Shown piece by piece: positions 6,440-56,922 of a stretch of 64,000 nucleotides of DNA. Numbering within the stretch: the stretch's first letter is position 1; every line of letters starts with the position of its first letter. Source of the stretch: Eledone cirrhosa (Eukaryota); NCBI GenBank assembly GCA_964016885.1, contig OZ024743.1, positions 265,422,001-265,486,000 on the forward strand, in the 5' to 3' direction. A program made the translations under genes and the position numbers. The notes under the pieces were generated by a model that had not been told where the DNA came from, searched no databases, and saw only the letters and a list, made by a program, of their open reading frames with translations.

Positions 6440-6821
6440 ATTGATGCGATACAGTCATGGGGATGGATATAGATATGAACGCTTATACCTCGAAGGAGAA
6501 TTAGGTTGTCTTCTACATAAATTGGAACGAGTGAAACTTTTCTCTGAAACAACAATTAACGAAAACTCTTTAAAGTTTTCATATTTAATGAAGGTCACAA
6601 AAATGGAAGTATTAATATAGCATCAAGTATGTTGTATTTTTTCATGTTCTTTATGACTGCGGAGGATAAAGTAGCCTGTTCATTTTGCAACATATAGCGT
6701 CAAATTAGAATCTTTCATGTTTTTAATGAGTAAATGTAATGAATATAGATGTGTATGTGACGTTTTTATTATTATCATTAAAAGAAACCATTATTATCAT
6801 AATAATAATAATAATAATAAT

Positions 6822-9800
6822 GATTTCATTTATTGGCCACGAGGGACGACATATAAGGGACAATACAAAAGACTAGGACAGTGGGGTTTTACAGAAAAAT
6901 CGAGTAAACAATATGAATCACAATAACAAAGTAACAATAAAATTACAAGAAAACATTCCCCAATAGGGAGGATGACCACCCAGGGTTCGCTCAGATACCC
7001 CACCAATCCTGAAAGACCCGACGCTTCGAGAGCACCCTGGAAGGGCACCCCTCTCCTCCTCAAATTAACCTACCTACAGCCGCATGACCAGAGTAGGCCC
7101 ACTCACGCGGGCCATTCTCGCCACATTCACACACCTTTCAGCAAATGTACTGGGGGCAGCACTTCTCTCTCCACCCTCACCTTCCTTTCCAAGTGAAACT
7201 TGAAAAAAGTTGATGAGGGATTGGCCGAAGAGAAAAGTGTCTGTCTTCAGTCCTTTCAGCCTCGTCCACCATACAACCTCTTTCGCTACTGCCACCAGAC
7301 AGAGGAAAATTGCCTGCCCTTGCTGGCCAAAAGAAGGCGGCGGGTCGATCTTCGCTATGGACTCAGCCGATAGCCGGTTCTGTTCTACACGCGACAACGG
7401 CTGTTCAACATAACTCCACAAGTCAGTAATGTACGGACACTGGATGAGTGCGTGCAGAACAGTTTCGTAGCTCTGTGCGCATCTTGGGCAGGTCCGTCTG
7501 ACAGCACTTCCGTGCCTGTAGAGTTTATCTCGAATTGGCAGTGACCCCCGGTAGCACTGCCAAGCGAGGGATTTTTGGAAATTATCCATCATCCCCGGCT
7601 CGAAAGTCCTCCAGTACAGACTGGTTAGTTCGACTTCGTTGACTCCCAGAACCTCTCCAAGTGCGTCGTCGCGCTTGCCCTCCACTAATCCTCTATAGAA
7701 CTCGAGAGTAGAAGTTCCACTGACCGCATTGCCCGCCTTGTAGCGGGCAGTGAGTGCCTGGCAACATTCCAGATGCCAGTCACCCAGTCTCGGTCTCTTC
7801 TTGACCCAGGATTGCAGCTCAGTCAAAGCAACGAGCTGCAGAAAGGCCCGTCTGACAAACGGTGATCACACCTGTTCACCGTTTAGACAGAATATCTGGA
7901 GATGCCGCAGCCTCAGCGCGTGCCTGCGCATCATTAGCCACGGCATGCCCAACCCTCCGCGTAGAGGGTGCTGGAGGCAAATGGACCGCCTCACCATCGG
8001 AACCTGACCCCTCCACAATAATTTGAAGTGGAGCCGCTCCAGGATGGCGAGGCGCGGACGGGGGCAAGAGACGACGGTCAGACTGTAGTAGATGACGGAC
8101 GCTATGTACGCGTTCCCCACCTCCGCCCGACCTTTCAGTGATAGCTTCATCCCAGCCCATTTCTGGGTGGGACTGGCTACCCTGCCCGTCACCTCGTCCC
8201 AATTCTTATCCACCTGGATGTCTGGCCCGAACCAAACCCCTAGCAACTTTACCGGTCCGTCCGCCCAGCGCCTAACGATGCTGGTGGACGGCATGGACTT
8301 GCCCCTCCAGGTGCCGAGCTGCAAGCCCACCGACTTCTCCGGGTTAAGTTTTGCTGCCGTCAACCTTTCATATTCCTCCAATAAGTTGCCGACCACCTCG
8401 ATTTCTGAGGTGTCCGACATCATCACGGTGATGTCGTCCGCATAAGCCGATACAGCCTTTCCGCGTCCCGGTTCGAGCGGGATGCCCTGCAACAGCTCCA
8501 GCTTCCGCAATAAAGGCTCGAGAGTCAATACGTACAGAAGGGAGAAGACAGGGCACCCGGGAGACCTGAAACGGTTCTGAGAGGTGGCCATTAATTTTGA
8601 CTTTCGAGCAGGTGCCGCTGTGCATTGCAGTGATCCAGCTTCTGAAGACGGGGTCGAAGCCAGCCGCCTTGAGGACAGCCTCCAGGTACCGATGGTCGAC
8701 CCTATCTAATGCTTTCGATTGATCTAAATTGATCAGAGCCCCACCGAAGCTAGGTTTACACCCTACCCTCTCTATGATGTATCGCATTAGGTGGAGGTTG
8801 TCGTGTATGGACCTGGTTGGGATTATGCAACTTTGCGCCTCCCCAACCAAATCCCCGACGACAAGCGCCAACCTCTTCGCTAACACCCTGGCCAGAATCT
8901 TAAACTCTGGTTTGAGCAGAGTTATGGGCCTGAAATTGTCTAATGTGTCCCTCTTGTTCTCGTCTTTCCTTATCAACGTCACTACGCCCCGACTCACAGA
9001 ACTGGGAATACTCCCGTTTTGCTGCCAGTTGCAGTAGAGGGCTTCGAGGAGATTGGAGAACAAGTCTGGCATATTTACGTAAAGCTCGTAGGGCAGACCC
9101 TCCAAACAGGGTGACTTGCGCCTCATGCAGCCGACAAGGGCATCCTGAATCTCGGCTGAAGTAATTGGCCTTTCGCAGCGCCCAGCGTCAGCCGTCGAGA
9201 GTTGCGGCAAGCCATCGAGGTTGGGACTGAAGTCCGCCACCATCTCTGACCCGCCACTTCCCCCGAACAACCGAGCAAATTGTTGGCAAAAGGCCTCACA
9301 CATCCGCTTGGAATCGCTCAGCTCGTGTCCTTCTCGGTCCGTCAAAAACCGAATCGTAGTTTCATTACCAGGCTGTGCATCTTCCACGCGGGCCCATCGA
9401 ACAGCTTTGGTTCCCTCGTTTCCCAGAGCACGCGCCTTAGCTCTGACAATGCAGCCTTCGTGTTTCGCATTGAAGAAATGGTCTACTGCCATTCTCGCCG
9501 CTAGTACGTCAGTTGCAATACCACTACCAATAGCCTCGTCTAACTTATCTACCAACTCCCCCACCTTTCTATTTTTCTCTAACGCTACTTCTTTGCTACA
9601 CTCTATCAACATTACTCTAATCTCTCTTTTGAGAGCCTCCCACCATCTATTGTTGACGACTTCCCCTGTCAACTTTTTCTTACCTGAATTGTTTATCTGG
9701 TCCCTGTAAGCCTTACGTGCCGGAAATGACATGTTTAGCTTCCAGTAACCAGGTCCTAACCTACGCGTCTTATCTAGGACGACCATAGAGATCACAAACT

Positions 9801-10753
9801 TGTGATCTGAATAGGTGACCGTTTCAAAACGTGGACAGCTTACACTATTTCTGTCTATTTTCCTAATGAATATCCTGTCTATATACGGTCTAGATGACCC
9901 TATGTGGTTAGCCCAGGTCCACACTGGCGCATTAGGGAAATCTAGTCGTTACCTGTCAGACAGTTGGAACTGGCTGATCAGGTTATTGAGGCTTTTGCAA
10001 CCCCCGCTCCTATCGGATACTCCCACACTGTCCCAGTGTGCGTCTAAGATGCCGTTCCAGTCCCCCGCTAAGAGTAAAGGGCGGGAACTGCCCAGAAAGG
10101 CTTCCAGGCGTCTAAAGAAGTCCGGCCGTCCTGCTCCAGTAGGAGCATTGCCTTCGGTCATAATATGAATGACCGTCCCATTCTGAAGGCGGATGTGGCC
10201 CGCGATTGTCTTCACATTCTCGGGCCTGATCTGGAGAAGGATCTCCAGGTCAACTCCGGTCCAGTCCTCTCTGGCCGTTCTGGTCACTTCTATCGGGACG
10301 GTATCCGTCCCCTCCACAATCACACATCCCAGAAGCCACCACATGTCAAGTCCTGGTGGGATTCTGGGAATGCGGAGACGGGTCGTTCTTTTTCCCATGT
10401 GGGAGCGGTACATTATGACCTTGCTGGTTTTGCAAGGAGTCATAGCGTGTTTCATAGCGAGTGCTTCTGACTTGAACAACACTGAAATTGTGCCGTACTG
10501 TCTGCCCCTCTCTATGTATTCGGTGTCTTCCCTGATGCACCTCAGCCATGTTATTTTTTTCTCCGTAAATTTTTTAACATGTAAAAACTTTCAAAAATTT
10601 GGGCCAAAAGGCCCAAATATTATACTTTCCCCTTCACAGAGCAAAATCTAAGGGTTTATATCCCTCACACAACCATAAATATTTAACAACAAATAATTTT
10701 AACAGGCAAATAAAGTGACTTACTGGGTGCGAGCATATACATCCAATTAGACC
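6822..10753 (-). mobile_element. Tx1/L1-clade LINE copy 1, internally deleted and frameshifted
   Basis: ORF1 remnant fused to APE motifs (GDWN, WTW, YIDR, YSDH), then RT (RPITLL, LDQSKALDRVDH, YADD) and a C-terminal CPRC..H..C motif. AATAAA lies near the 3' end, with (AAT)n on both sides. Confidence 0.92.
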
Positions 10754-10771
10754 AATAATAATAATAATAAT

Positions 10772-13700
10772 ACTGATTTTTTATTGGCCCCAAGTGCTAA
10801 CATAAAGAAAAACATTACAGCGGCCCAGGATGGTACAGGACGGTACGATGTGGGATTTGTGCGTATAAATATTTTGATTATTTATATAAGAAAATAAAGA
10901 AAAAAAGGACATAGAAACATATGTATATATAAACGATAAAAATGAAAATTGAACAATGAAAAATTCCCCAATAGGGGGGAACCTCCGTGGGTTACTCGTG
11001 GCGAAAACCACACAAAAGACCATGGCCACCCTGACCACCAGGTCAAGAGCCAACTCTCAATGTTTCCATCTTTCAAACTACAGACGTATATTCAGAGTGG
11101 TCCCGTTCACTTGGACCATTCTCGCTACAATCAGCCACGTTTCAACAAACTTGCTAGAAGGCAGCACTTGCCTCTCCACCCTGATTTTCCTCTTCAAGTG
11201 AAACTTGAAAAAGTTAGTTAGATATTCGCCGAAGAGGAAAGTGTCTGTCTTTAACCCTTTCAACATTGTCCACCACACAATCTCTTTCGCCATGGCCACC
11301 AAGCAAATGAAAACCGCCTGCCCTTCCTCCTCGAAGGAAGACGGCGAGACCAAATGCACAATGGACTAATTCGATAATCGGATCAGTCCTACACGCGACA
11401 CCAACTGTTCGATATAGCTCCACAAGTCAGCAATGCTCGGGCACTGAACGAGTGCGTGCAGGATGGTTTCGTCGCTCTGCGCGCATCTCGGACAGGCTCG
11501 GATGACGGTACTTCCGTGACTGTAGAGCTTATCTCGAACCTGCAACGCGCCTCGGTAGCACTGCCAGGCCAGGGATTTTTGGAAGTTATCCATAGGCTCT
11601 GGGCTGAAAGTTCTCCGGAAGAGGGCAAACAGCTGATCTTCTTCGACGCCCAGGATCTCTCCGAGAACTTCGTCGCACTTCCCCTCCAATATTGCTCTAT
11701 AGAACGCCGAGGTGGATGTTCCACCGATACTTGTGCCCAGCTGGCAGAGAGCGGCCTGGAGACATTCCAGTTTCCAAGCGCTAACCTTCGGTCTTTTCCT
11801 GACCCAGGACTGCAGCTCCGTCAAGAAGACGAGCTGTCGGGAAACGTACCTGGCAAATGGCGACCACACCTGCTGACCGTCAAGGAAGCACCAGAGATGA
11901 TGCAGCCTCAGCGCATGTTTGCGCATCATCAGCTATGGCATGCCCAGTCCTCCAACGGGTGTTGACAGCAGATGGATGGATCGTCTGACCATGGGAGCGC
12001 GTCCCTTCCACAGAAAGCGGAAGAGGAAGCACTCAATTTTGGTGAGAGTTGGGCAGGAGCTAGGGACGACGGTGAGGCGGTAGCAGATGACGGACGCGAT
12101 GTACGCATTCGCCACCACCGCCCGGCTTTTCAGGGGCAGCTTCCTCTCGGCCCATTTCTGGGTGAGGGAGGCCACACTGCTCGTCACCTCGCTCCAGTTT
12201 TTCTTCATCTGGAGGTCCGGTCCAAACCAGACCCCGAGCAATTTAACCGGTCCATCCGTCCAACGTCCCACGACGCAGTCGGGCGGCATTGACTTGCTGC
12301 TCCAGGTGCTGAGCTGCAAGCCTACCGACTTTTAATGGTTTATGTTTGATCATGTCACCGCTTCGTATTCTTTGAGAGCGGTGCCGAAATCTGGACGTGT
12401 CTGGTGCTCGGCACCACAACGGTGACGTCATCGCGTAAGCCGACTCGGATTTCCTGCACCCTAGTTCGCGCGGAACGTCCCTCATCGCCCCCCAGTTTGT
12501 GCAGTAACGGCTCGAGATTCATTACGTACAAGAGGGACGAGATGGGATAACTCTGGCGGACCGAGCGCATAATGCTGAACGGCTGCGACAGGTGACCGTT
12601 CACCCTCACCACTGAGCAGATTTCGCTGTACATCGCAGCGATCCAACCCCTAAAAACGGGCTCGAAGCCGGCTGCCTCGAGAACCGCCGACAGGTACCGA
12701 TGGTCGACCCTATCGAAAGCTTTGGATTGATCCAAGTTGATCAGGGCTCCACCCGTCCCAGGTTCCTTAACCACACTCTCTACGATGTGGTGGAGGTTGC
12801 GTGTATGGATCTGTCCGGAATGGCGCATGTCTGCGTCTCTCTCACTAGACCCCCGACGACAAGCGCCAACCTCGTTGCTAACACTTTGGCCAAAATCTTG
12901 AACTCTGCGTTCAGCAGGGTTATGGGCCTGAAGTTATCGATAAGATCGCCCTTGTTCGGGTCTTTCCTCAGCAGCGCCACCGCACCACGGCACACAAACG
13001 TGTGAATGCTTCCGTTCTGCTGCCAGTTGCAATAGACATCTGCCAAGAGGTCACCCAACAAGTCTGGCATAAATGCATAGAGATCGTAGGGCAGACGAAC
13101 CAATCATGGCGATTTATCCCTCGTGCAGTTAGCCATCGCTTCCCGTATTTCACCGGCTGTTATTGGCTTTTCGTAACACTGTGCTGCGGTCGTCGAGAGC
13201 CAAGGCAGTCCGTCGAGGTATGCACTGAAGTCCATACCCTGATGCGGCCCGCCGCTGCTCCCGAACAGTTCAGCAAAGTGCTGCTGAAAAGCCTCACACA
13301 TCCGCTCGGATTCGAGCAACACGCGCCCGTTTTGGTCAGATAAAGACCGAATTGTGATTTGTTGCCACGTAGCGCCTCTGCTACCCGGGCCCATTGGACG
13401 GCTTTTGTCCCCTCGTGTCTCAGAGCACGCGCTCCATCTCTGACAACGCAGCCTTCGTGTTCAGGGTTGAAGAATTGGTCGAGTGCCAATCTCGCCGCAA
13501 GCACGTCGGTTATGATGCCTGTCTTAAACGCCTCTTCTAGCTTTATAAAGTGCTGGACGTTTCAAGAAATGTCTCTTAACGTCTGAAGAAAGCTGGCCGT
13601 CCTGCCCCAGTTGGGGCGTAGACGACTACTAGCCTGAAAGCATTGCCTTCGTTGCCGGTCACGTCCAGCACCACCGACTTACCTTCTGGGTCTAGGAAGA

Positions 13701-16248
13701 AAGCCCGTATGGCGAGATCCAAGCCTCTCAGAAAAAGGATGACCCCCCCCCCCCCCCCCCTCCAATCCTGGACGGCTGGGAAATGCGTATAGATCGTAGC
13801 CGCCGAAGATCGTTGCAAAGGCTCGTGCTTCGGTGATTCTGGCTTCGCTGATGGCCACCACATCTATGTTTAGTGAAACTGCTTCAAAATGACCCCAGGC
13901 CACGTGCATTTATGTTTCCTTTCTGAGTAAGGCCATGTTGGATGAGAAACGGGGCAAGTGAGAAAGGGTCACTTACCTAGATTATGTGGTGAAGGGACAG
14001 TAGAACTGTCCCTTTTGCTGGTCATGGGTGTTTTCAAGAGGATGTCAGTGTATATCCTCTTGGTAACCGACCCTCTGAAGTCTCCAACTGCGTTGGGGAA
14101 TTTTTGTTTTAAAGGTTTGTACTGTTCTATTGAGATTTCGCTGATGCTTCTGTTTGTCGGGAGAGTTCTTGGTGTTGGTGGGGTGTAGTAGTTTTTTTCT
14201 GTGATGTCTGTGTGCTGCTTTATATATTGTATGAGTTCATTTTTGCTATGTTTATGGCTGTGACTTTTTGGGGGGAGAGGGGATTTTGTTGCTGTTTTCT
14301 TCTTATTGCTGTTTGGTGTGTGTGTCTTGTTGTGTTTGCGTTGTTGGTGTTTTTGGTGATGCTTGTTGTGGTGTGGTTGTTGTTGTCAGTGGTGCTTGTG
14401 GTGGTGATGGTGGTGGTGTTGCTGCAAGAATCCTTGCTGCCTTTAGCCCTCTTTGTATGCCTTATCTTTTGGAGTGTGAATCTAAAGGTTTTTTTGTGGG
14501 GGGGGGGGGGTTGTGGCAGACCGTTTGCCACTTCACTCCCGCCTCAAACTCCATGTCGGATTCTGTGGCGTCTGGGAGGGGTATGTGCTCTACGGCTCTT
14601 GGTGGTGGTAGTGGAGCCCACTTCAGCAATTTTGTTGCTGGTGTAGCTACTTCAAATGTAGCTATTGGTGTTCCCGCCACTGATGATGCTGCTTTAGTTG
14701 TCCGTGGCCTTGGTACGGGTGTTACGGGCGTTGCCTTCCTACTCACCGTGGAAGGGGCTTCTTCGTTTGTTGCCTGTCCTGCTCTTGGTAGCAGCGGACC
14801 AGATATTGGAAGGAGAGGAGCCTTCTTCGCCGTCTTCTGCGGGCAAAAGGCCCTGAGGTGACCCTTCGACCCACAGAGATAACATTTTGGCTATCTTCCT
14901 TCTACACTTAAAGGGAGTTGAAGTCCTTCCACGATGTCTATGATATCGGGGATAGCGTCGAGACATTCCTGGTCAGTTTGTATAAGAATTTGCATGCCTA
15001 TACCTGACCAGTTCTCTTTCCCTATTTTTTCTACTTGCAGCATGGTCGTCCTGTTCTCGATTCCAGCAAGGACACACGCGGCCAGCCAAGGTATGGGCAC
15101 ATCGGGTGGGACCTGGGTCACTTTGACCCTCACAATTTTCTGCCCGCAGTAGGAGGGCACCTCACTCTTTACGGTTTCCAAAGAGTGAGACTTTTCTTCC
15201 TGGGGGGTGGCGATAAGTACGTCTACTGAGTCGTACTTTCTGCCTCGGGTGATGTGGGTATTGCGTGCCCAGACGCACCCCAAGGCCGTTGGGATTTGAG
15301 CCTCCATGGCTCTCTCCACACGATGTGAGATTATTCTTATGGTGCGGTATGTCACCATCCGTAGCTGCAGGTCCTTGAAAAAATCGGATGGAGGTTTCAG
15401 GGAGACTCTATTTGCGCTTCATGTCACCATGGCCCTTGCGACTGCCATATCCTCCTCTGTGACTAACACTGTCTCGATATTTCGGGCGACACCTGCAAAA
15501 GAAGTGCTCCCTTTTTCAGCAGCACCACTATTGCTGCCACTACTGATCCTACTGGTATCGGTGTCACTGTTGTTGTTTTCGTTGGTACAGTTGTTGGTGG
15601 TGTTGTTGTTGTTTTCGTTGATACTGTGGCTGTTGTTACTGTTATTGTGGCTGTTTTTATTATTGTTGTTTTTGTTGATACTGTTCCTACTATTATTGTT
15701 GTTGTGGCTGTTGTTATTGTCATTGTTATTGTCGTTCTTGACCTTACCGCTGTTATTTTTTATATTGCCGTTCTCGACTTTACCGCCGTTATTTTCGTTG
15801 TTGCTGTTGTTATTAATGGTGCTGTTGTTGGTGTTGTTGTTGGTGGTGTTATTGTTGGTGTTGTTTGTGTTAGAAATATTTGTTAATTTTAAATCTGTAA
15901 CAATCTTCTTTTCCTTTGTAATATTTTCGTTTATATTTGCCTCCGCTGGAACGCTGTCTTGTTGACATGCTGATAAAGTCTCCCTCTCTCTGTGATGTCT
16001 GACAGCACTCTCTCTCTCTTTCTTGTGTTATCCATGTTGAAATTTTTCAACAAAATATGTTTACACAAATACGAATACGACACCCCGTAAAAGGGGTGCC
16101 GTATTATTTACGAGTGAGTCCCTGTATTAGGTGGGTCACTTCTTCTACACTTTTATCAAATTTAAAACTTGAATAAAAAGTTTAGAACGGTTGAAAACGA
16201 GGTAAAACGTTGAAAAAAACTGGAGGCGACAAGAAGCGTGGCTTCACC
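10772..16248 (-). mobile_element. Tx1/L1-clade LINE copy 2, with both ends, ORF1 and a decayed ORF2
   Basis: ORF1 has a Thr/Asn-rich N-terminus and a CYLCGSKGHLRAFC knuckle. ORF2 runs from ~13937 with APE (SEAR, VYAP; deletion at ~13575), RT ([19 protein letters not shown]) and CPRC..H..C. Flanks are (AAT)6 and (AAC)4(AAT)8. Confidence 0.92.
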
Positions 16249-16284
16249 AACAACAACAACAATAATAATAATAATAATAATAAT

Positions 16285-17229
16285 ATACGTGACTGATAGT
16301 AAGGAGCCAATGCTCAGAATTGTACTGAAGGAGAGGACAATAGACCAGGGGATGCCCAAGGAGGAAATAACAACAAGGAGAAAGAGCAGCCTTCATGAAA
16401 AATCCCTTCATAGTACCTTCTTTGAGAAAACTGAATTCAGAGATCCACAGACATGGAACTGGTTGAAGAGAGGAGACCTTAAAAAGGCTACAGAAGGAAT
16501 GCTAATGGCTGCGCAAGAGCAGGCCCTCAAAACGAAGTGGTTGAAACACCATATTTACAAGGAGGAGGCTAGCCCACTGTGCAGGATCTGTGGAGAGAGA
16601 GAGAGGAGACTGTGGCTCACATTGTATCCGAGTGTAAACACCTAGCCCAGACTCACTATAAGGGCTGGAGACATGATGTGATGGGCATGGTTATCCACTG
16701 GCACCTATGCAAAGTAAACAATTTACCACATTCTGAGAAGTGGTATGAGCATAAGCCAGAGGCGGTGATAGAAAACGATCAGGTGAAGGTGCTGTGGGAT
16801 TTTAGGATACAGACGGACAAGAAACTTGAACACAATAGACCTGACTTGGTGGTTTTGGACAAGGAAACAAGATCGTGCCTGATTGTGGATGTGGCCTGCC
16901 CATTCGACACGAGAGTGCAAGAGAAGGAGAGGGAGAAAATTAACCGATACCAGGACTTAAAGTGGGAGGTAAAAAGGATTTGGAACTGCCATGAAGTCAA
17001 AGTCGTCCCGATTGTCATAGGCGCACTATGTACTATCTCAAAAAGTTTCCAGGGATGGTTAAAGAAAATTAGCCCCGCCACGCTTTTTGGAACGCTTCAA
17101 AAGGCATGCTTGCTGGGAACAGCAAGAACCCTCCGATACGTCCTGAATATCTGAGGCTGCAGGTAGTGGCTTGATATTAATTTCAACAAACTTTCCAGTT
17201 AAACTAACATCAATGAGTGAGACTCAAAG
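16285..17229 (+). mobile_element. R4/Dong-clade LINE family A, 5'-truncated (D1)
   Basis: CRIC..HIVSEC zinc knuckle, RHD motif and restriction-like endonuclease (RPD..IVDVAC..EREKINRYQDL). Stop at 17154, short 3' UTR, (AAC)n(AAT)n tail and one frameshift in an (AG)n run. Confidence 0.92.
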
Positions 17230-17238
17230 AACAACAAC

Positions 17239-17273
<35 letters not shown>

Positions 17274-17858
17274 TAATAAGGAACGCGCTGAATAACATCA
17301 TGGACGCCCATAACGAAGTTCCCCACACTATTTGAAATAAATCGAACACCATCGACAAAGCAATAATAAAAACACTACGAAAACAAAGTGGAAACATAAT
17401 TGACGAATACCAAAGAAGCCTACAAAAAATAAATTTTGTACACGGATCGTCCTTATAACATAATTTTCTACATTAAAATATCGGACCACATGAAATAGAA
17501 TATCAGCCGCGCCACTACTCAGAATTGTAAATCAAAACTAATAGAAAAACGATATATGTACGTAACAAACTCTATTGATTATATTACACATGCATGTATT
17601 ATGAACACTACGAAAAATGTACACAAAACAAACATGCAGATATACAGACGTTCGCTATTTGAACAACTATTTGAAGAAGAGAAACAGTCGTAGATCGGAC
17701 GACACGTTGCTTATTTCAGGAGTAAGTTTTGTTTAATTTGTTATTCCCTAACACGAAAATTCGACACATTATTTCACCACTTATCTCTAAAAATAATCTG
17801 ACACTGGTTGTGAGAACTGCATAAATATTTTTATATATTTACCCATTACAATCGCTGT

Positions 17859-18118
17859 TTGACTTTGCCTTTCATCCTTACGGAGTCGATAAAATAAAGT
17901 ACGAGTAATGCACTGGGTTATTGCTGGCCTTGTGCCTAAAGTAGAAACAATTATTTGAAGTGCATTGGCAGTATCGGTAGAGGGTCGGACGCCATGCTTC
18001 CTAGCATAGTTACGTCCCTTTACGATCTGAGTTCAAATCCCGCCGAGGTTGACTTTGCCTTTCATCCTTACGGGGTCGATAAAATAAAGTACCAGTAATA
18101 CACTGGTTAATTGCTGGC
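17859..18118 (+). mobile_element. Tandem SINE units (tRNA-related, octopus-type)
   Basis: ~190-bp repeat unit with B-box-like gagttcaaatcc and the core gactttgcctttcatccttacggggtcgataaaataaagtac. It recurs at 34110-34406 and in degenerate form at 37540-37690. Confidence 0.75.
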
Positions 18119-20010
18119 TCAGGTGATATTTTGAAGATGTCCAGTTATTTCAGAATCCATGAGTGCAGTATGCTGTCAAAGGCTTTTTTTATAATCGATC
18201 CATGCAGAACTGAGATGTCTGTTCTCAAGGATAATACGATTAATCAAGAGTTGATCTTTGCAACCATATGAACCTCGTCGACACCGTTTTTGTTCAATGG
18301 GGAAAAGATTGTTCTCCTCCAAAAACACGTATGTCTTTTCCATGAGAATAGAGGTTAATAATTTATAAGTGGTGGACAAGCAGGTTATGGGCCGATAGTT
18401 TTTTGGATCTTTGGTCTCGTTGTTCTTTGGTAGAATGTAGGTAATGCCACTTGCTATCCAATCAGGTGTATTTTTTGGATCTTTCATAATTCCATTATAC
18501 AACTTGACGAATATATTGTGAGTGCACGGGAGTGAGGAAAGTTATACATTTGGCACCCTGTCTCTACCAGGAGATTTCCATTTATGGGATTTATTGAGTG
18601 CTGTCCTTAATTCCGCTATAGAGATGTCTTCCCATGCCTGTTCTAAATATTTGTAGGATTTTTTCCAGGCGACTAATACAATCTACATTAGCATCATATG
18701 TCTTCTCATCATTCCAAATCTTACTCCAGAAGTGTTCAACTTATTCTATGGACACAATAATTATTTTTATCAATAATTATTTTTTCAATAATTTTTTTTT
18801 TCTTCCCTACCTCTCTATAAAATGACGTGGCATTGGATGAGAACAACTTATTTTGCCTGTAGAAGTGGTTTCGCTTCTCGTATCTATGAATTCGTTGGGC
18901 TTTTACTTGGACCTTTTCTTTCGGAGGTTCTTTTGTTGAAACTATTGCTTCTCTAGAAGACAGTCCATATTTTCTCCTTAGCTTTCTTACCTTCTTGGAT
19001 CTTATATCATTTCCAGCGTTTAACTCACTCAATAAAGATATTTCTCCTCTCATTACGTCAATCTCCCTTTCGATTCTACTCCTCCAAATTAGTTTACCTC
19101 GAAGGTTCGACATTTTTGGGGGTTTTTTTGTGGTAAACAACTTGTTTCAATTACTCTAGCAGGTGCATAAATGATATCATTTAACTCAGTAAGATCAGGT
19201 TCTAGTTATTCTATGATTTTCTTTGTCACAGAATTACCAATCATTATTTGTTTTCCATTTTGGATTGTATTTGGGAGTTTTTGAACTGGTTCTCTATCAG
19301 TTATACTAGAATGTATGCTCATTCAGTATTTTTTGCAATTCCTTCATAGTCTCCCTCTGTTCTTCAGCAGAAGTTTGGTTTTCAATTACTGTTTCTATGT
19401 CCCTCTCCTGGCTATTTTCAGCGGATTCAATAGGGCTTCTCATTTCTACAATCCTATTTGTGATTTGGTCAGATGGATGTCTTTCAGTAAAGACTTGTGA
19501 CTATCTCCAGGAGATTCTTCAGTTCTTTTATCATTTATATTTATGTCATTCTCCACAGCCTGCTTGATCGCAGTTAGTTTAGTGTCTGTGAGTCTATTAT
19601 TATGGAAGATATACCTCCTTACATTTGCCAACTTATTTCCATCCATATCAGGTCTGCTAGCTTGATTCCGAGTTTTCCAGATTTTGTAGGAGTTTAAAGT
19701 GTGCCTGGTTGTGATGGCTTACCTAATGCATAGTAATATGCATGTATTACTTCTTTATACTCTTCTCGGGTCCATTTCATCCTTTTATGTTATTCTTTTT
19801 GAGGTGGTTTGGGTGGTGGATCTGGAGGGCTCCAGTTGGGGCAATCGCGGGTCAAGTGACCATCCAGGTCCATAATTGGAGAAGAGTTTGTGCCAGAGAA
19901 GGACTTTTCGATCTGACGTTGGCACATTCCTGAGGGAGGCGCTTCCTGATTAACCATAGGAAAATCGATTTGGTATTGTGTATTAATTTGTATTTGTTCA
20001 TCTCGCAGTA

Positions 20011-20011
<1 letters not shown>
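18119..20011 (-). mobile_element. R4/Dong-clade LINE, decayed 5' half (distinct from family A)
   Basis: N-terminal KWTREEYKEVIHAYY (Myb-like) and NKLANVRR, then KSPG.D, T.ILPK, NYRPITCL, EQK.C..G..GCKDQL and WIDYKKAFDS..HSWI (early RT domains). The 5' end abuts (ATT)n. Confidence 0.85.
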
Positions 20012-20089
<78 letters not shown>

Positions 20090-20090
<1 letters not shown>

Positions 20091-20370
20091 TTTGAGTCGC
20101 AGTCATTGATGTTAGTTAACTGGAAAGTTTGTTGAAATGAATATCAAGCCACAACCTGCAGCCTCAGATATTCAGGACATATCGGAGGGTTCGTGCTGTT
20201 CCCAGCAAGCATGCCCTTTGAAGCGTTCCAAAAAGCGTGGCGGAGCCAATTTTCTTTATCCATCCCTAGAAACGTTTTGAGATAGTACCTAGTGCGCCTA
20301 TGACAATCGGGACCACTTTGATTTCATGGCAGTTCCAAATCCTTTTTACCTCCCACGTTAAGTCCTGGTA

Positions 20371-20372
<2 letters not shown>
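20090..20372 (-). mobile_element. R4/Dong family A short 3' fragment (D2)
   Basis: High identity to the 3' end and UTR of D1 and D3, with (ATT)n on both sides. Confidence 0.9.
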
Positions 20373-20411
<39 letters not shown>

Positions 20412-22189
20412 GTATTTGAGTCTCAGTCATTGATGTTAGTTAACTGGAAAGTTTGTTGAAATGAATATCAAGCCACTACCTGCAGCCTCAGATATTCAGG
20501 ACGTATCGGAGGGTTCTTCCTGTTCCCAGCAAGCATGCCTTTTGAAGCGTTCCAAAAAGCGTGGTGGGGCCAATTTTCTTTAACCATCCCTGGAAACTTT
20601 TTGAGATAGTCCCTAGTGCGCCTATGACAATCGGGATCACTTTGACATCATGGCAGTTCCAAATCCTTTTTACCTCCCACTTTAGGTCCTGGTATCGGTT
20701 AATTTTCTCCCTCGCCTTCTCTTGCACTCTCGTGTTGAATGGGCAGGCCACATCCACAATCAGGCACGATCTTTTTTCTTTGTCCACAACCACCAGATCA
20801 GGTCTATTGTGTTCAAGTTTCTTGTCCGTCTGTATCCTAAAATCCCACAGCACCTTCACCTGATCGTTTTCTATCACCGCCTCTGGCTTATGCTCATACC
20901 ACTTCTCAGAATATGGTAAATTGTTTACTTTGCATAGGTGCCAGTGGATCTCCCTGCCCATCACATCATGTCTCTAGCCCTTATAGTGAGTCTGGGCTAG
21001 GTGTTTACACTCGGATACAATGTGAGCCACAGTCTCCTCTCTCTCTCCACAGATCCTGCACAGTGGGCTAGCCTCCTCCTTGTAAATATGGTGTTTCAAC
21101 CACTTCGTTTTGAGGGCCTTCTGCTGCGCAGCCATTAACATTCCTTCTGTAGCCTTTTTAAGGTCTCCTCTTTTCAACCAGTTCCCTGTCTGTGGATCTC
21201 TAAATTCAGTTTTCACAAAGAAGGTACTATGAAGGGATTTTTCTTGAAGGATGCTCTTTCTCCTTAATGTTATTTCCTCCTTGGGCATCCCCTGGCCTAT
21301 TGTCCCCTCCTTCAGTACAGTTCTGAGCATTGGCTCCTTACTATCAGTCACGTATTTGTGTATGTTGTTTTTCTCCATCTGAACACAGTCCTCTATGCTG
21401 ATAAGACCTCTTCCACCTTCAGATCTCCTTAAGTAGAGTCTATCGACATCACTCCTCTTGTGGAACATGTTGTAGATAGTCAATAGAATCCTAGTCTTCC
21501 TATCCATTTCTTTTTGTTCAGCAACATTCCATCTCAGAATTCCCGCACTGTACCTAATAATAGACACAGCTCGGGAATTTACTGCACTTATGGCATTCCT
21601 ACTGTTCAGATGTGACTTTAATACGCTCCTTACTCTCCGAATGTATTCAGTTCTTATCAATTCCTTCATTTTTTTGTTCTTGATGTCATCAGCCTCCAGA
21701 ACACCCAAATACTTGTATCCATCTTCAGAGTCAATTTCCTTTATCATCTCACCTGTTGGTACCTGGATTCCGTTACTTCTGCTCAACTTACCCCTCTTCA
21801 TCACAATGACTCCACACTTACTAATACCAAATTGCATACATATATCATTGCTGAAAATACGGACAGTGTCAACAAGCACATCCAACTCCTTCTCACTCTT
21901 CCCGAAGAGCTTAAGATCGTCCATTAAGAGGAGGTGATTGATGGTAAGCCCTCCCTTTCCCAACCTGTATCCTGCTCTCACTTTTCGCAGTACAGTGATC
22001 AGGGGCATCAGGGTAAGGACAAACAACAGAGGGGACAGACTATCACCCTGGAAGATACCTCTCTTGATCTTCACGCTTCCCAAGTATTCTCCAGTTGATG
22101 TTAACTCTGTTTCCCAGGACTTCATACTTTTGCCCAACAACTGTCTGATGTTATCTGCCACCTTGAAGATCTCCAGGCTTTTGGTGATC

Positions 22190-22190
<1 letters not shown>
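20412..22190 (-). mobile_element. R4/Dong family A, 5'-truncated (D3)
   Basis: RT motifs GIFQGDSLSPLLF, NHLLLMDDLKL and YKYLGV, then GGRGL, a CCHC knuckle and REL. A single TAG replaces the W of KGWRHD at 20974. (ATT)n lies on both sides. Confidence 0.93.
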
Positions 22191-22247
<57 letters not shown>

Positions 22248-25200
22248 GGCGTCTTGCGGAGGAAATGGTATTATCGTGAGCTCCGCAAAGGTTTGTTGTT
22301 TTCAGATGTTTCAAATTGCCATTTATGGAAAAATTTTATTGTTAACTGTATATACGTGCACATACATTGTTATCTGAAAAGGACACCCAAAAAGATTGGG
22401 TCCTTGAGCCCAAAATTTAAACTTTTATAATTATCAAACAACATTTTTTCTTGGAAAAATCATGGGCTACCCAGCTCACTCCTTCCTCACAAACTAACAC
22501 CTCACACCGACACCACCATTGTAAATATTACTACGTTTGCTAACACTAAAAATATAAGCAGTAGCAATATTTTAAATTTGTCTCGGGCAGACATTCATTT
22601 CCCGCCATTACCAATGACTGCAGGTGTTAAAGCCGCTACCCCCACCACTACCACAGCGACAACAGAAACAAAAGAAAAAATAAATTAACTCGTGATATCG
22701 AAATGAATTCAACCAAAATGAACTCTTCCACATCGAACACCACTGACGCCACCACCACCACAACTGAAACTAAAATTAATAATAAAAAAAATAACGATAA
22801 CCACAACAGCAACAATGACATTAAGAAAACCACACTGAGTTTTGCCAGAGTAGCAAAACAGTGCGAAGCATTTCAGGTAACTCAGGAGGAATTAGAAGAA
22901 GCCCCCAAAATGGTAAAGAAAGATAGGTACAGGGTCAGCCTACCCCCCAACTAATAAAATGGGGCATGGGCGCCCCTGCACCGTGTCTTATCGAACAATT
23001 AATATAAAATCGCGCCGAGTGGAACGGGCATCCGAGGCCCAAATCCAAAAAGCTTTGGGACATGTGTGGGCAAAAAAACCACACATGAGACGTGGGCAGA
23101 ATTATGGAACCGTGGACGTGTTCTTTGAAACACCACAGGAGGCTAGAGAACACTCCATGGCCCCATTAAGAAGTGACGACTTCACACTCGTCCCAAGCTA
23201 TTGTGGCCAGAGACTCGTAAATATCAGGGTGACCCACGTTCCACCGGCCATCGAAATTCCCTGGCTAATATCTGCCGTCCTTGCCGGCATCGAAGCCAAC
23301 ACCAACATAATCGAAATAGCGAAAGAAAAGCAGCAGAACTGGTCCGGATCAGGGATGGAGCTCCTGATCCAAGCGGACCAAAAAAGCATTGAGGAGATCC
23401 CAGAGGTAATAGACGTCACTGACGGCAGCCATCTCACCGTAATCGTCGAGGGCAGAAGGCCAAGGTGTGTCGTTTGTGGTGAAAGAACCCACCTATGGGG
23501 TTTCTGCCCTCCGGCTAAAAGGTTGAGGCCACCTCTCCTACTCATCCCAGTGACTCAACCATCAACACCACCAGCAGCAGAGATGGCAGCAACAACAGAA
23601 GCAACTGTAACAGCAACAACCCCAGCACCAGTAGCAATACCAACACCACCACCACCCAACGCTTCAGAACTAGCACCAGCGCCTACACCATCCACCACTC
23701 CACAACCAAAACCAACGCCTGTGGAGGATTTTACAATCCCCGGCCTATCACAACTGGAGACAGATTGTGACGACGAGGAGTGGGGAACGGCATCAGGAAA
23801 AAAGAAATAAAGAAACCAAAATAGAAAAAAAATATCTTCCCTCCCCCTCCAAAAACAAAATACAGAGGGAAACAAATAAACTATCAAACAAAAAATTGAG
23901 GACAGATATGCCACCATCCACACCAGCATCACCGACTCCATCACCACAAACACCAACACCATCAACATCATTAACCCCAACACCACCATCACCAACACCA
24001 CAAAAGTCACCAAAAAGCGAAACAGAAACAAACCCACAACAAACACAAACAAAACAAAACAACCAAAACGATGCACACTACACAGCATTAAATTTGAACA
24101 ACAACCAATTATTACACTACATCCAACACAACACCAGCTTCACAGAAAAAGACTACACAGCAAACCAAAAGTTCACACCACCTCCACACATACAAATCAC
24201 TCGCATCACACAGAAAACGTACACGACACTAAAACAAAAATTCCCCAAAGACATCGGAGTCTTCCGACAAGCACTCTCCAGGAGGATTTATAAGGACATC
24301 CTTCCGGAGTAGGCCACAAGCAGTGAAAAGGATGGAGAAACCATCTTTCCTCTAGGAGAAGTAAGGTAAGTGGTCTTTCCCATCTTTTCCACTCCATTTC
24401 AACATGACCTCACTCAGAATAGGCAGCACAAATGCACGTGGCTTGGGGTCGTCTTGGAAGCAGGGCCACCTGCTCAACGACCTCAGGTCACTAAACATAG
24501 ATGTAGTGGCCATCAGCGAGACCAGAATCTCCGAAGCACGGGCCTTCGCACCGATCTTCAGCGGCTACGATGTGTACGCATCTCCCAGCCGTCCGGGATC
24601 GGGGTGTGGAGTTGCTGTGCTTTTTCGGAGAGGTTTGGATCTCGCCATACGGGCCATCTTCCTGGACTCAGAAGGTAAGTTGGTGGTGCTGGACGTGACC
24701 AGCGGAGACGGGCAAGCTTTCAGGCTAGTGGCCGTCTATGCCCCGACAGGAGCAGGGCGGCCTGATTTCTTCCGGTGTCTGGAGACCTTTCTTGGAACGT
24801 CCCGCTCTTTAGTGTTAGTGGGCGACTGGAACGGGATATTAGATGCACGCTGGGACTGTGTGGGAGTAAAGGGTAGGGAAGGAGGGTGCAAGAGCCTCAC
24901 CAACCTTCTCAGGCATTTTGAACTCTCTGACAGGTACCGATTGGATTTCCCGAATGTGCCAATGTGGACTTGGACAAATTGCATAGGGTCATCCAGATCA
25001 TATCTAGATAGAGTATTTTGTAGGGAAATAGATAGGTCTAGCATAGGCTGTCCACAATTCAAGATAGTCAGCTACACGGACCACAACTTCGTGACCTGTG
25101 TGCTTGACTTTGATAGGCTTCATAGACGAGGACCAGGCTACTGGAAGCTAAACGCGTCTTTACCAGTGCGCAAGGCCTACAGAGATCGGATTAGCGAACT

Positions 25201-27780
25201 AGTTAAGCGGGCGTTGAAGGAGGCCATCGTTAACAACAAGTGGTGGTTTGCTCTGAAAAGAGCAATTAGAATAGAGTCCATTAGGTTTAGTAAGGCTTTA
25301 GCAATAAAGAAAAATAGAGCAGAGGGAGAATTAGTTAGACAATTAGGCGAGGCGCTTAGCAAAGGCATCGCGACCGACGTACTTGCGGCGAAATTGGCCC
25401 TTGCCCAATTCTTCAATGCAAAGCACGAAGGCTGCGTTGTCAGAGCTAGGGTGCGTGCTCGCAGACGGGAGGCAATGACTGGCTGCACAAGGGGTAAATT
25501 GCCTGGTTTGGATTGTCTGCCCTATGAACTTTACGTACAGATGCCAGACTTGGTCGGAGGCCTCTTGGCGGACGTCTATTGCAACTGGCAACAGAACGGG
25601 AGAATTCCCAGCTCTGTGAGCCAGGAGATGTGGCGCTGCTGAGAAAGGATCCAAACAAGAGGGATAACATAGATAATTTCAGGCCCATAACTCTGCTAAA
25701 CACAGAGTTCAAGATTTTGCCCAAGGTGCTAGCAAAGAGGTTGGCGCTTGTCGTTGGTGGTCTGGTGGGAGAGGCGCAGACGTGCGCCATTCCCGACAGA
25801 TCCATCCACGACAACCTCCACCTCTTGCGATACATTGTAGAGAGGGTAGCTAGGTAACCTGACACGGGTGGGTCCTTGATCAATTTAGATCAGTCGAAAG
25901 CTTTCGAAAGGTTCGACCATCGTTACCTAGAGGCAGTCCTGAGGGCGACTGGATTTGAGCCCGTCTTCAGAGGCTGGATCGCTGCCATGCACAGCGACAT
26001 CTGCTCTGTGGTGAGAGTGAACGGTCACCTTTCCGAACCGTTCAACATCATGCGCTCGGTCCGCCAAGGATGTCCCCTCTCCTCCCTCTTGTACGTATTG
26101 AGTGTCGAGCCATTACTGCACAAACTGAAGACGTTGAGGGGGGTCCCGCGCGAACTAGGATGTGGAAGATCCGTGTCAGCATATGCGGAACATGTCAACC
26201 TAGTGGTGGCGAACCCCAAACACATCGAGGCGACCGGCACTACACTAAGAGTATACGAAGCGGTGACAGGAGAAATGATCAACCAATAAAAGTAAGTGGG
26301 CCTGCAGCTCGGCACCTGGAGAGGCAGGTCCATGCCGTCCAACTACGTCGTCCGGCGCTGGACGGACGGACCGGTTAAATTGGTTCGGTCCGAACCTCCG
26401 AACGGACAAAAACTGGGACGAGGTGACGAGCAGGGTGGCTTCTCTCACCCAGAAATGGGCCGAGAGGAAGCTATCCCTGAAACGTCGAGCGGAGTTGGCT
26501 AACGCGTACATCGCGTCCGTCATCTACTACAGCCTGGCCGTCGTACCTTATCCTAAGCCCCGCCTAACTGCGGTGGAGCGTTTGCTCTTTCGCTTTTTTA
26601 TGGAAGGGACGCGCTCCGATGGTCAGACGGTCCATCTGCTGTCAACACCCGCTACGTGGAGGACTGGGCATGCCGTGGCTGATGATGCGCAAACACGCGC
26701 TCAGGCTACGACATCTCCACCTCTTCCTCGACGGGGATCAGGTGTGGTCGCACTTTGCTAGACGCGTCTTTTCCCAGCTAATTTCCTTGACTGAGCTGCA
26801 GTCCTGGGTCAAGCGAAGACCGAGAGGGAGCGCTTGGAGACTGGAATGTCTTCAGGCGCTCACAGACCTCGACTAATCGGGCAATGTGTTCGGTGGAAAC
26901 TCCACCTCGGCGTTCTATAGAGGATTAGTGGAGGAGAAGAGCGACGACGTACTTGTGGAAACTCTAGGCGTCAACGAAAATCAACTACGCAATCTCTTCG
27001 GAAGAACTTTCCGGCCGGGGCCTATGAAAAATTTCCAGAAATCCCTAGCCTGGCAGTGCTACTGAGAAGCCTTGCTCGGGATAAACTCGACAGGCATGGA
27101 GGTGCCGTCAGCCGGGCATGTCCGAGATGCGCGCAGGGCGACGACATCTTCCTGCACGCACTCGTCCAGTGTCCGAACATTTCTGACTTGTGGGTTTATG
27201 TCGAACACCTGCTGTCGCGTGTAGGACGGATCTAGCTATCAGCTGAGTCCATCGTGAGGATTGCCCCGCCCTCTTCATTTAGCGGGGAAGGGCAGGCAGT
27301 TTTTATCTGTCTGGTGGCCATGGCGAAACAGATAGTATGGTGGACACGTCTGAAAGGGCTGAAGATGAGCACTTACCTCTTCAGTGATGCCCTGATTAAC
27401 TTTTTTAAATTTCATTTGAAAAGGAAAATCAGGGTAGAGAGGAAAGTGCTCTCTTCCCAGCATTTTGTTGAAAGATGGGTGAGAGAAGCAAGAATGACCC
27501 GAGTGGCCTACTCTTAGTATGTGTCTGTAAATTAAAGGTGGAAAACTGGGAGAGAGCACTTGCCCTGGTGGTCAGGGTCACTGTGGTCTTTTAATGGGCT
27601 TTCTCCACAAATGTCCCTCGGAAGTCTCCCCATATTGGTGAATTTTTCATTGTTATTTTTGTGTTACATCCTCTGTTTTTGTTTTTTACACGCAGAAATA
27701 CCCATTTGTGCCGTCCTGTATTGTCCTGTACTGTCCTTAATGTCTACTTTATGTAAATCCTTGTGGTTAATAAAGAAAAC
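22248..27780 (+). mobile_element. Tx1/L1-clade LINE copy 3, with both ends
   Basis: Starts GG directly after (ATT)19. ORF1 pieces 22703-24312 carry a CVVCGERTHLWGFC knuckle. ORF2 runs from ATG 24404 with APE (NARGL, SETR, VYAP, GDWN, SYLDR, YTDH), RT (RPITLLN, QGCPLS) and CPRC..H..C. There is an internal deletion at ~25465, and AATAAA precedes the (ATT)n tail. Confidence 0.93.
24404..27517 (+). pseudogene. Tx1-like ORF2 (APE endonuclease + reverse transcriptase), disrupted
   Basis: Consecutive ORF fragments show the expected motif order, broken by frameshifts and stops. Confidence 0.88.
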
Positions 27781-27806
27781 ATTATTATTATTATTATTAT
27801 TATTAT

Positions 27807-28701
27807 AGTTGCATTTATCTTGCTTTATGTTCATACGAGTTATCACCAAGTCACAAACAGTGACTTCAAGAGACAACAAGGTCCGCCATGTTCAAGAAAG
27901 AACATACATACACACACATGCATCTTTAGGTGTTTAGACTTGTGATGTACTTATATTGACAGAATCTTCCTTAGTATATGGGCTGTTCCCATTAGTACTA
28001 TCTTTTGTATTTCTCCTATACGCGGGCTTCCTGGGATTTGCGATAAGTAATCATTAGACCCCTTAGGTATCATTTCTAGAGCGCCTACAACCACTGGTAT
28101 TGTTTTAGTTCTCAATTTCCACATTTTTCCAATTTCTATCTCCAAGTCCTTATACTTGCTCAATATTTCAAATGCTTTTATAGACACATTCTTGTCTTTG
28201 GAACGGACATATCAATTAGCAGGCATACCCTCTTTTTAAAGTCCTTCAGTATTATATCAGGTCTATTTGCATCTATTTTTCGGTCTTTTTGGATGCTAAA
28301 ATTCCACAAGATTGAGATGTGATCTTTTTCAAGTATGGGAGGTTGTTGATGTTCCCACCAATTCTTATGATGCGGTGGGTCAAAATGCTTACACATTATC
28401 CAATGTATGTATTGTGCAGCTCTGTCATGCCTGTTTAGGTATTCGGTTGGAGCTATAGGACTGCACATTGAAATTATATGATCAATGGTCTCTAGTTGTT
28501 TTTTACATACAGGGCATAATGGGCTGCATCCATTTTTTATTATGTTGGCTTGGTAATTTTTTGTTGGCAGACACTGATCTTGTGCTGATATAATCAGTCT
28601 TTCAGTCTCCGATTTCAGTCCAGAGGATGCCAACCACTGTTGGGTTAAAATGTTGTCAACATCAGGATTGTTAGCTCTTTCTGGGTATTTTCCATACAGA
28701 G
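27807..28701 (-). mobile_element. R4/Dong-clade LINE family B, 3' fragment
   Basis: AQDQ.L.T, CPVC..HIISMC, RHD, NRPD..LLIDMSVP, KYKDL and ILRKILSI* (stop 27951). The 3' UTR ends in an (AAT)n tail shared tail-to-tail with Tx1 copy 3. Confidence 0.9.
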
Positions 28702-28951
28702 GCTGTTCCCAGCAAGCATGCCTTTTAAAGTTTTTCAAAAAGCGTGGCGGGACCAATTTTCTTTAACCATCCCTGGAAACTCTTTGAGATAGTACCTAGT
28801 GCGCCTATGACAATCGGGACCACTTTGACTTCATGGCAGTTCCAAATCCTTTTTACCTCCCACTTTAAGTCCTGGTATCGGTTAATTTTCTCCCTCTCCT
28901 TCTCTTGCACTCTCGTGTCGAATGGGCAGGCCTCATCCACAATCAGGCACG
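28702..28951 (-). mobile_element. R4/Dong family A fragment (D4), 3' end lost
   Basis: REL segment ACPFDTRVQEKEREKINRYQDL, fused directly to family B at ~28701, with (ATT)n at its 5' side. Confidence 0.88.
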
Positions 28952-28958
28952 TATTATT

Positions 28959-29018
<60 letters not shown>

Positions 29019-29027
29019 GTTGTTATT

Positions 29028-30294: not shown

Positions 30295-30298
<4 letters not shown>
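29028..30298 (-). mobile_element. R4/Dong family A, 5'-truncated (D5) with open frame
   Basis: Uninterrupted ORF portion through the CCHC knuckle and REL to YVLNI* (29102), with (ATT)n on both sides. Confidence 0.93.
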
Positions 30299-30340
<42 letters not shown>

Positions 30341-33973: not shown

Positions 33974-34109
33974 TATAATATAGATATAAACACATATATA
34001 TAGTATAACAAAGTTCTTTCGTTGCATATCTGCAGCATCATCAGTGGTACTATTATGTTCCTCCTGTTGCATTGTATGTTTACTCCATTATCTATGTACA
34101 GCAAAGAGT

Positions 34110-34471
34110 TACGGCCTTTATGGTCTGAGTTCAAATTCCGCCGAGGTTAACTTTGCCTTTCATCCTTACGGGGTCGATAAAATAAAGTACCAGTAATGTA
34201 CTGGTTTATTGCTGGCCTTGTGCCAAAATTAAAAACAATTATTTGAAGTGGATTGGCAGTATCGGTAGAGGGTCGGACGCCGTGCTTTCTAGCATAGTTA
34301 CGTCCCTTTACGATCTGAGTTCAAATCCCGCCGAGTTTGACTTTGCCTTTCATCCTTACGGGGTCGATAAAATAAAGTACCAGTAATACACTGGTTATTT
34401 GCTGGCTCAGGTGAGATTTTGAAGATGTCCAGTTATTTCAGAATCCATGAGTGCGGTATGCTGTCAAAGGC
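34110..34471 (+). mobile_element. Tandem SINE units plus a 65-bp R4 RT fragment (duplicate of 17859-18183)
   Basis: Colinear high-identity match that includes the junction ctggctc|aggtga..tttgaagatgtcc. Confidence 0.8.
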
Positions 34472-41792: not shown

Positions 41793-43955
<2,163 letters not shown>

Positions 43956-44272: not shown

Positions 44273-44274
44273 TG

Positions 44275-56921: not shown

Positions 56922-56922
56922 G

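What the first reader, a model, noticed from the sequence alone, without database searches (positions are those of the whole stretch)
6801..27806. Tx1-clade LINEs that appear specific for (ATT)n microsatellites
Seen: three diverged Tx1-like copies with unrelated 5' UTRs each keep both ends. Read in sense, each has (ATT)n or (ATT)n(GTT)n directly before a 5' GG and (ATT)n directly after the AATAAA end, so all six junctions involve the repeat. Known: the Tx1 clade includes APE-based site-specific families (Kibi (TC)n, Koshi (TTC)n, Keno U2, Dewa tRNA arrays). Inference: this is an (ATT)n-targeting Tx1 lineage that I do not recall being described, so its APE domain would be a new microsatellite-specific nickase.
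Basis: partly seen in the sequence, partly recalled or inferred. Interest (0 to 1): 0.75.

Follow-up and report, generated by a model that had tools for sequence, protein, structure and literature searches.

The report
ATT-seeking LINE family, probable octopod
A large family of jumping genes in this probably octopod genome sits in ATT repeats far more often than chance, likely because its cutting enzyme reads a short ATTAT word and its RNA tail likely pairs with the repeat; repeat-targeting is a known lifestyle, but this target was not found in the papers searched.

Summary
The three LINEs are real (APE endonuclease + RT, L1/Tx1 type), but they touch five tracts, not six: one tract is B's tail and A's 5' flank. 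Genome-wide, 87 of 87 full-length 5' ends abut (ATT)n. For A and C that junction is phase-locked, so part of it is likely RNA-borne. The cleaner test is truncated copies: 24 of 85 sit at 4 or more ATT units (background 0.08%) and 46 of 85 have ATTAT within 25 nt (5%). The other 39 do not; 16 of them abut cut neighbouring elements. A SINE sharing the 3' hairpin leaves target duplications starting (A/G)TTA(T/A) (17 of 17) but sits in a tract in only 1 of 47 cases. The likely target is therefore a short ATTAT word, with tract preference added by RNA pairing. Two sister families use (TATC)n and a CTCTATATC satellite and differ in the endonuclease hairpin tip. Dong-like elements use the same tracts in the opposite direction. 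Verdict: a new target variant of a known kind, strong preference rather than strict specificity. Repbase could not be checked. This scan reported the same system on other DNA of this genome (8 notes shown).

The parts
6822..10753 (-). L1/Tx1-type LINE, family A; both ends kept, two internal deletions, broken ORFs
10772..16248 (-). L1/Tx1-type LINE, family B; the adjoining GTT is likely its own 5' start; one internal deletion
22248..27780 (+). L1/Tx1-type LINE, family C; endonuclease frame 24365-25642; one internal deletion
27756..27774 (+). 3' hairpin with CTTGT loop followed by AATAAA (element C)
   Evidence: sequence; family tally
6799..6821 (-). (ATT)7 tract, 3' tail of A
10754..10771 (-). 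(ATT)6 tract, 3' tail of B and 5' flank of A
16249..16284 (-). (ATT)8(GTT)4, 5' flank of B and 5' junction of a Dong-like copy
22191..22247 (+). (ATT)19, 5' flank of C and 5' junction of a Dong-like copy
27781..27806 (+). (ATT)8 tract, 3' tail of C, tail-to-tail with a second Dong/R4-like family
16285..17228 (+). 5'-truncated Dong/R4-like LINE with (AAT)n on both sides
20412..22190 (-). 5'-truncated Dong/R4-like LINE (RT, C-x2-C..H..C, NRPDLVVVD motif)
20091..20372 (-). short Dong/R4-like 3' fragment between two tracts
27807..28702 (-). 3' part of a second Dong/R4-like family
29030..30299 (-). 5'-truncated Dong/R4-like LINE between tracts 28952-29027 and 30294-30340
17859..18118 (+). two tandem pieces of the SINE that shares the 3' hairpin (a second pair at 34105-34406)

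Best explanation
These are decayed copies of a large L1/Tx1-type LINE lineage that sits preferentially at ATT repeats, likely because its APE endonuclease nicks the strand complementary to a short ATTAT word and its (AUU)n RNA tail likely pairs with the nicked strand, favouring longer tracts. Shown: element anatomy, flank statistics, target duplications beginning in ATT, no poly(A) at 3' junctions, head-to-tail stacking, opposite-facing Dong-like elements in the same tracts. Inferred: the nick is on the (AAT)n strand (from standard target-primed reverse transcription geometry; exact bond not resolvable); reverse transcription starts inside an (AUU)n tail; full-length RNA carries 5' (AUU)n from the flank, so the cDNA end anneals in phase; each insertion re-creates a tract, which feeds the stacks; the same ORF2 mobilises the SINE in trans.
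For: 87 of 87 other full-length 5' ends abut (ATT)n (read by eye; the queries began at the element's GG). 23 of 24 full-length copies found from the 3' end pass a 10-of-12 match. Truncated: 29 of 77 pass 10-of-12 vs 294 of 57,000 background; only 1 of 77 on the AAT strand. 23 of 77 have 4 or more units vs 30 of 36,240; 44 of 77 have ATTAT within 25 nt vs 5.0%. Duplications starting in ATT and running into unique sequence: L058, L070, L082, L240, L241, L264, L250. Poly(A) in 1 of 137 tails. Phase: 58 of 58 A and C full-length junctions end the tract in frame, truncated ones split 8/7/4. SINE: duplications in 18 of 30 vs 0-3 shuffled, 17 of 17 long ones begin (A/G)TTA(T/A); same CTTGT loop as A, B and C with a different but paired stem. 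Sister families S and T have other flanks and hairpin tip NRSGTSR against NRIGSSR in A, B, C.
Against: 39 of 85 truncated junctions have no ATTAT within 25 nt; the second sample was weaker (1 of 8 with a tract, 2 of 8 with ATTAT). Loss of ATT does not track divergence (p = 0.57). The duplication search gave 9 of 101 vs 2-4 shuffled, three of the nine doubtful, and a search for displaced duplications gave 4 of 40 vs 0-3. Dong-like copies are stricter (14 of 19). The loop difference is one evolutionary event, T rests on 3 sequences, and loop grafts on L1 endonuclease did not transfer specificity in modular fashion (PMC1950540, passages). No biochemistry or RNA data. The SINE partnership rests on 13 nt plus a shared footprint.
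Confidence: 0.62

Rival explanations
1. The endonuclease itself reads several ATT units (a true microsatellite-specific nickase, the first reader's view). ATT-less junctions are all later deletions, and the SINE uses another LINE.
For: 23 of the 44 ATTAT-bearing truncated junctions lie in tracts of 4 or more units, while only 64 of 1,072 background ATTAT sites do. 28 of 137 copies have internal deletions. 16 of 39 ATT-less junctions abut cut neighbouring elements vs 68 of 1,500 background.
Against: Several Tx1 duplications have only 2-3 units (L070, L082, L241; L074 by eye). The SINE shares hairpin loop, tail and polarity yet is in a tract in 1 of 30 and 0 of 17 cases.
Confidence: 0.2
2. The endonuclease is nearly unspecific (AT-rich nicks); selection of ATT sites comes only from pairing of the (AUU)n RNA tail with the primer strand.
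For: Every family's flank mirrors its own 3' tail; L1 priming depends on a few matched terminal bases (PMC3649969, passages); the full-length 5' junction is phase-locked.
Against: Endonuclease hairpin tip changes together with target class; Xenopus Tx1L endonuclease is sequence-specific in vitro (PMC1950540, passages); ATT flanks occur on both sides of the weakly supported RT root while the endonuclease of A stays closer to B/C than to S (66-67% vs 60%).
Confidence: 0.14
3. ATT is only a 3' tail; 5' tracts come from clustering of copies behind older tails, tandem duplication or later slippage.
For: 38 of 87 full-length copies follow a SINE or Tx1 3' end; 82 of 137 tails have another element within 170 nt.
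Against: 49 of 87 follow other sequence; truncation points are scattered yet ATT-flanked; duplications start in ATT; S and T show no such tracts.
Confidence: 0.04

Closest known systems
Kibi (TC)n, Koshi (TTC)n and crocodilian (TTCC)n/(TTTC)n Tx1 families (PMC4494074: passages and section 15 read, figure 3 and supplements not seen; PMC3812793: passages)
   Same: APE-type LINEs that insert into one microsatellite in one orientation
   Different: target is ATT/ATTAT; host is probably an octopod; sister families here use (TATC)n and a satellite; relationship to Kibi/Koshi not tested
Dong (TAA)n elements of Bombyx, Anopheles and Biomphalaria (PMC3812793, passages)
   Same: same microsatellite
   Different: Dong-like copies here carry a restriction-like endonuclease motif (family label recalled) and read (AAT)n in their own sense, opposite to these LINEs
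Tx1-Mar LINEs with SINEU partners (PMC4494074, passages)
   Same: Tx1 family inferred to mobilise a SINE that shares its target preference
   Different: SINE here has a tRNA-like head (B-box-like word, recalled), and is not confined to the repeat
Tx1-1_ACar (PMC10088271, passages)
   Same: Tx1 element inserting into a short tandem repeat
   Different: telomeric repeat of the anole; described only in Repbase Reports, which shows such entries lie outside my searches
Human L1 ORF2p (PDB hits; PMC1950540, passages)
   Same: endonuclease and RT align at E 3e-20; hairpin loop has the same length between the T192 and S202 anchors; short target word
   Different: L1 uses TTTT/AA and a poly(A) tail; these use ATTAT and an ATT tail

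Membership tests
L1 group non-LTR retrotransposon | ORF2 with APE endonuclease, RT and C-terminal zinc motif | tested here: met
L1 group non-LTR retrotransposon | ORF1 upstream with CCHC knuckle | tested here: met
   found in natural copies of B, C and E types, not in the one A copy scanned
L1 group non-LTR retrotransposon | 5' truncation, fixed 3' end, target-site duplications | tested here: met
   duplications visible only where the tract is imperfect
Tx1 clade | RT groups with reference Tx1 families rather than L1 proper | tested here: inconclusive
   no reference Tx1 sequences in hand; nearest Tx1-named protein is an automatically named Stylophora protein at 31%; tree has no L1 outgroup
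Microsatellite-specific Tx1 (Kibi/Koshi type) | more than 20% of flanks are one microsatellite (criterion quoted in PMC4494074) | tested here: met
   87 of 87 full-length; 24 of 85 truncated at 4 or more units
Microsatellite-specific Tx1 (Kibi/Koshi type) | descent from the Kibi/Koshi lineage and a TC/TTC-type target | tested here: not met
   target is ATT, not TC/TTC; descent not testable without those sequences
Microsatellite-specific Tx1 (Kibi/Koshi type) | endonuclease nicks the target specifically in vitro | not testable with these tools
   needs biochemistry
Dong/R4 (neighbouring elements) | RT plus restriction-like endonuclease motif, (TAA)n on both sides | tested here: met
   motif in translation (motif identity recalled); (AAT)n 5' flank in 14 of 19 junctions; no tree built
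SINE partner of this LINE | shared 3' structure and insertion signature | tested here: inconclusive
   shared CTTGT loop and ATTAT footprint; other LINEs of the genome not excluded

The most novel reading that the evidence does not exclude
An octopod radiation of Tx1-type LINEs has retargeted among ATT, TATC and a satellite through a few endonuclease-loop changes. The ATT branch reads only ATTAT, sharpens it to the microsatellite by RNA-tail pairing, drives a very abundant SINE, and shares tracts with Dong from the other strand. This gives a natural series for separating nuclease and RNA contributions to target choice.
Probability: 0.35. Interest if true: 0.68.

Novelty: new variant of a known kind. 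Interest (0 to 1): 0.46.

Why it matters
How APE-type LINEs target microsatellites was described as not well understood (PMC3812793, 2013, passage). Here close families (endonucleases about 60-80% identical) use three different repeats, and a likely passenger SINE exposes the short core word. That makes enzyme-versus-RNA contributions directly testable by swaps. It would also mean many ATT microsatellites in this genome are retroelement junctions, which bears on their use as markers.

Tried and rejected
Single-sequence fold of an endonuclease fragment: mean pLDDT 43.5, not used. Sequencing-run search: no RNA holder listed. Rfam scan of the SINE: only sub-threshold miRNA hits caused by an inverted SINE pair. 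Displaced-duplication search: no gain over shuffles. Divergence as predictor of lost junctions: no effect; length trend weak (14/21, 14/24, 7/12, 9/20). Endonuclease tree does not resolve A, B+C and S+T, so monophyly of ATT families is not claimed. Tx1-1_ACar checked: telomeric, not ATT. Literature searches with no ATT-targeting Tx1 found: (listings; one search was on priming). Two reviews on target-specific LINEs were not held. Supplements of PMC4494074 were unavailable and may list further Tx1 targets. A second background sample was not obtained, so background rests on 200 kb.
Full report
Observation. The window holds three LINEs: A 6822-10753 (-), B 10772-16248 (-), C 22248-27780 (+). Pfam gives Exo_endo_phos, RVT_1 and zf-RVT; the best PDB match of a natural copy is human L1 ORF2p (E 3e-20). 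Bodies are 72-77% identical in DNA. Each has an ATT tract at both ends, but B's tail is A's 5' flank, so there are five tracts. All three have internal deletions. Interleaved are Dong/R4-like LINEs (label from recalled motifs) that read (AAT)n in their own sense.

Genome. G000 has 3.0 Gb. The best named homologue is from Argonauta hians, 64%, so an octopod host is likely (inference). First-look candidates were 6537 and 1515 (C 3' end), 3126 (A) and 1770 (B); these are not copy numbers. Each search scored only the best 40 by identity, and I took up to 30 loci, so samples favour copies like the query. Flanks were not in the queries.

Full-length copies. Of 90 loci from 5'-end searches, 3 were the window's own; the other 87 all have (ATT)n directly before the start (by eye; 79 of 87 have a last perfect run of 4 or more units). 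The junction is phase-locked: 58 of 58 A and C copies end the tract in frame; B starts GTT-GG or GGTT-GG in 23 of 29. Truncated junctions touching a perfect tract split 8/7/4 over the three phases. I infer that part of the full-length 5' repeat comes with the RNA, so these junctions overstate targeting. Further 5' ends (GAATGCC.., GAGTCTG..) also follow tracts.

Truncated copies. Of 137 non-window 3'-anchored copies, 36 ran beyond the DNA held and were set aside, 24 were full-length (23 pass a 10-of-12 match; the 24th by eye) and 77 were scored truncated (at least one, L216, is an interrupted full copy). 29 of 77 pass 10-of-12 against 294 of 57,000 background positions, and 1 of 77 on the opposite strand. 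23 of 77 have 4 or more units against 30 of 36,240; 44 of 77 have ATTAT within 25 nt against 5.0%. A second sample of 15 new B places gave 7 beyond, and 8 truncated with 1 tract and 2 ATTAT: weaker. Combined, 24 and 46 of 85. Background is 20 fixed 10-kb pieces.

The 39 ATT-less junctions. 16 abut cut pieces of Tx1, Dong or SINE against 68 of 1,500 background, and 28 of 137 copies have internal deletions of 50 nt or more, so deletion scars explain a part. Two others have ATT-like duplications (L082, counted among the 16; L074 by eye). About 22 remain unexplained, and divergence does not predict them (p = 0.57). Target-site deletion at insertion or true off-target insertion is not excluded.

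Duplications. Informative ones were found in 9 of 101 copies against 2-4 in shuffles; six are convincing (L058, L070, L082, L240, L241, L264; 10-35 nt) and all start in ATT or GTT. Pure tracts cannot show one, and 82 of 137 tails have another element within 170 nt. Poly(A) follows AATAAA in 1 of 137, TTAT in 127 of 137.

Controls. Dong-like copies: of 29 other loci 10 gave no junction; 14 of 19 junctions have (AAT)n in their own sense (by eye). Sister family S, found in a background piece: 30 of 30 3' ends run into a CTCTATATC-type satellite, none into ATT (by eye). Sister family T: 16 of 23 junctions, after setting aside 6 internal deletions, have TATC-type 5' flanks (by eye). ATT flanks are thus specific to A, B, C and their variants.

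SINE. A 188-nt element ends in the same hairpin loop: C AACC-CTTGT-GGTT (59 of 67), A GGCC-CTTGT-GGCC (27 of 32), B AGCC-CTTGT-GGCC (32 of 38), SINE TGGC-CTTGT-GCCN (28 of 30); S has loop CTGGT (30 of 30) and T mostly CCTGT (22 of 29). Stems differ on both sides and stay paired. SINE duplications were found in 18 of 30 against 0-3 shuffled; the 17 of 9 nt or more start (A/G)TTA(T/A) in the upstream copy. Only 1 of 30, and 0 of 17 in background pieces, lie at tracts, close to the 6% of ATTAT sites that lie in tracts (64 of 1,072). Among ATTAT-bearing Tx1 junctions 23 of 44 are in tracts. If one enzyme serves both (inferred), it reads a short word and the LINE adds tract preference, most simply by tail pairing.

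Endonuclease. The loop between the L1 T192 and S202 anchors (alignment) is mostly NRIGSSR in A, B and C, and NRSGTSR in S and T (T from 3 sequences). The RT tree places A with S+T (91/94, not starred); the endonuclease tree leaves three groups unresolved. This is one change, and PMC1950540 (passages) reports that loop grafts alter but do not modularly transfer specificity. Suggestive only.

Literature. Known Tx1 targets read: Tx1D, U2, (TC)n, (TTC)n, (TTCC)n, (TTTC)n, Mariner, Harbinger, LTR elements (PMC4494074, passages and section 15), telomeric repeat (PMC10088271, passages). (TAA)n is listed for Dong only (PMC3812793, passages). An Octopus vulgaris repeat annotation lists L1-Tx1 and Dong-R4 and has no occurrence of 'target' (PMC13282606, first third and term search). 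PMC4640811 and PMC3649969: passages. Searches found no ATT-targeting Tx1. Repbase, subscription reviews and the supplements of PMC4494074 were not seen; I put about one in three on the target being already annotated there.

Earlier scan notes. One search showed eight unreviewed notes on this system elsewhere in the genome. They gave leads (sister families, hairpin, SINE outside tracts, two papers) that I tested; they are not independent support.

Verdict. Real, a strong ATT preference of a known lifestyle with a target not found in print; best read as a short-word nick plus RNA pairing (0.62). Interest 0.46.

Noticed in passing
L273:1-2415 and loci L321-L370: Sister LINE family S, younger (97% to the query), inserted in a diverged CTCTATATC satellite; L361 holds an open 1,136-residue ORF2 frame.
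   Followed up: partly
L288:1-295 and loci L372-L400, L431-L446: Sister family T sits in (TATC)n/(GATA)n repeats and stacks head-to-tail; mostly short copies.
   Followed up: partly
L211, L219, L225, L228, L261: One further 5' end/ORF1 type is joined to either a C-like or a B-like ORF2 and 3' end, suggesting module exchange between families.
   Followed up: partly
window 27807-28702 (-): Second Dong/R4-like family; its 3' end lies opposite the Tx1 tail in 8 of 137 copies.
   Followed up: partly
window 51726-54224 (+): Long frames (247 and 584 aa) that look Penelope-like with a GIY-YIG-type C-terminus (recalled motif); no Pfam hit at E 0.01 for the 584-aa frame.
   Followed up: no
window 17859-18183 and 34147-34471: 325-nt duplicate at 95% containing a tandem SINE pair cut at the same point and followed by the same sequence.
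   Followed up: no
window 41793-47951, 56464-59410: Very long imperfect (TA)n arrays of 0.8-2.2 kb; 46442 and 49289 start with the same short duplicated word.
   Followed up: no
L290:349-740: Two SINE copies head-to-head, forming a long inverted repeat that gives spurious miRNA hits.
   Followed up: yes
L271-L290: 17 SINE 3' ends in 200 kb of background, which extrapolates to roughly 250,000 copies.
   Followed up: no
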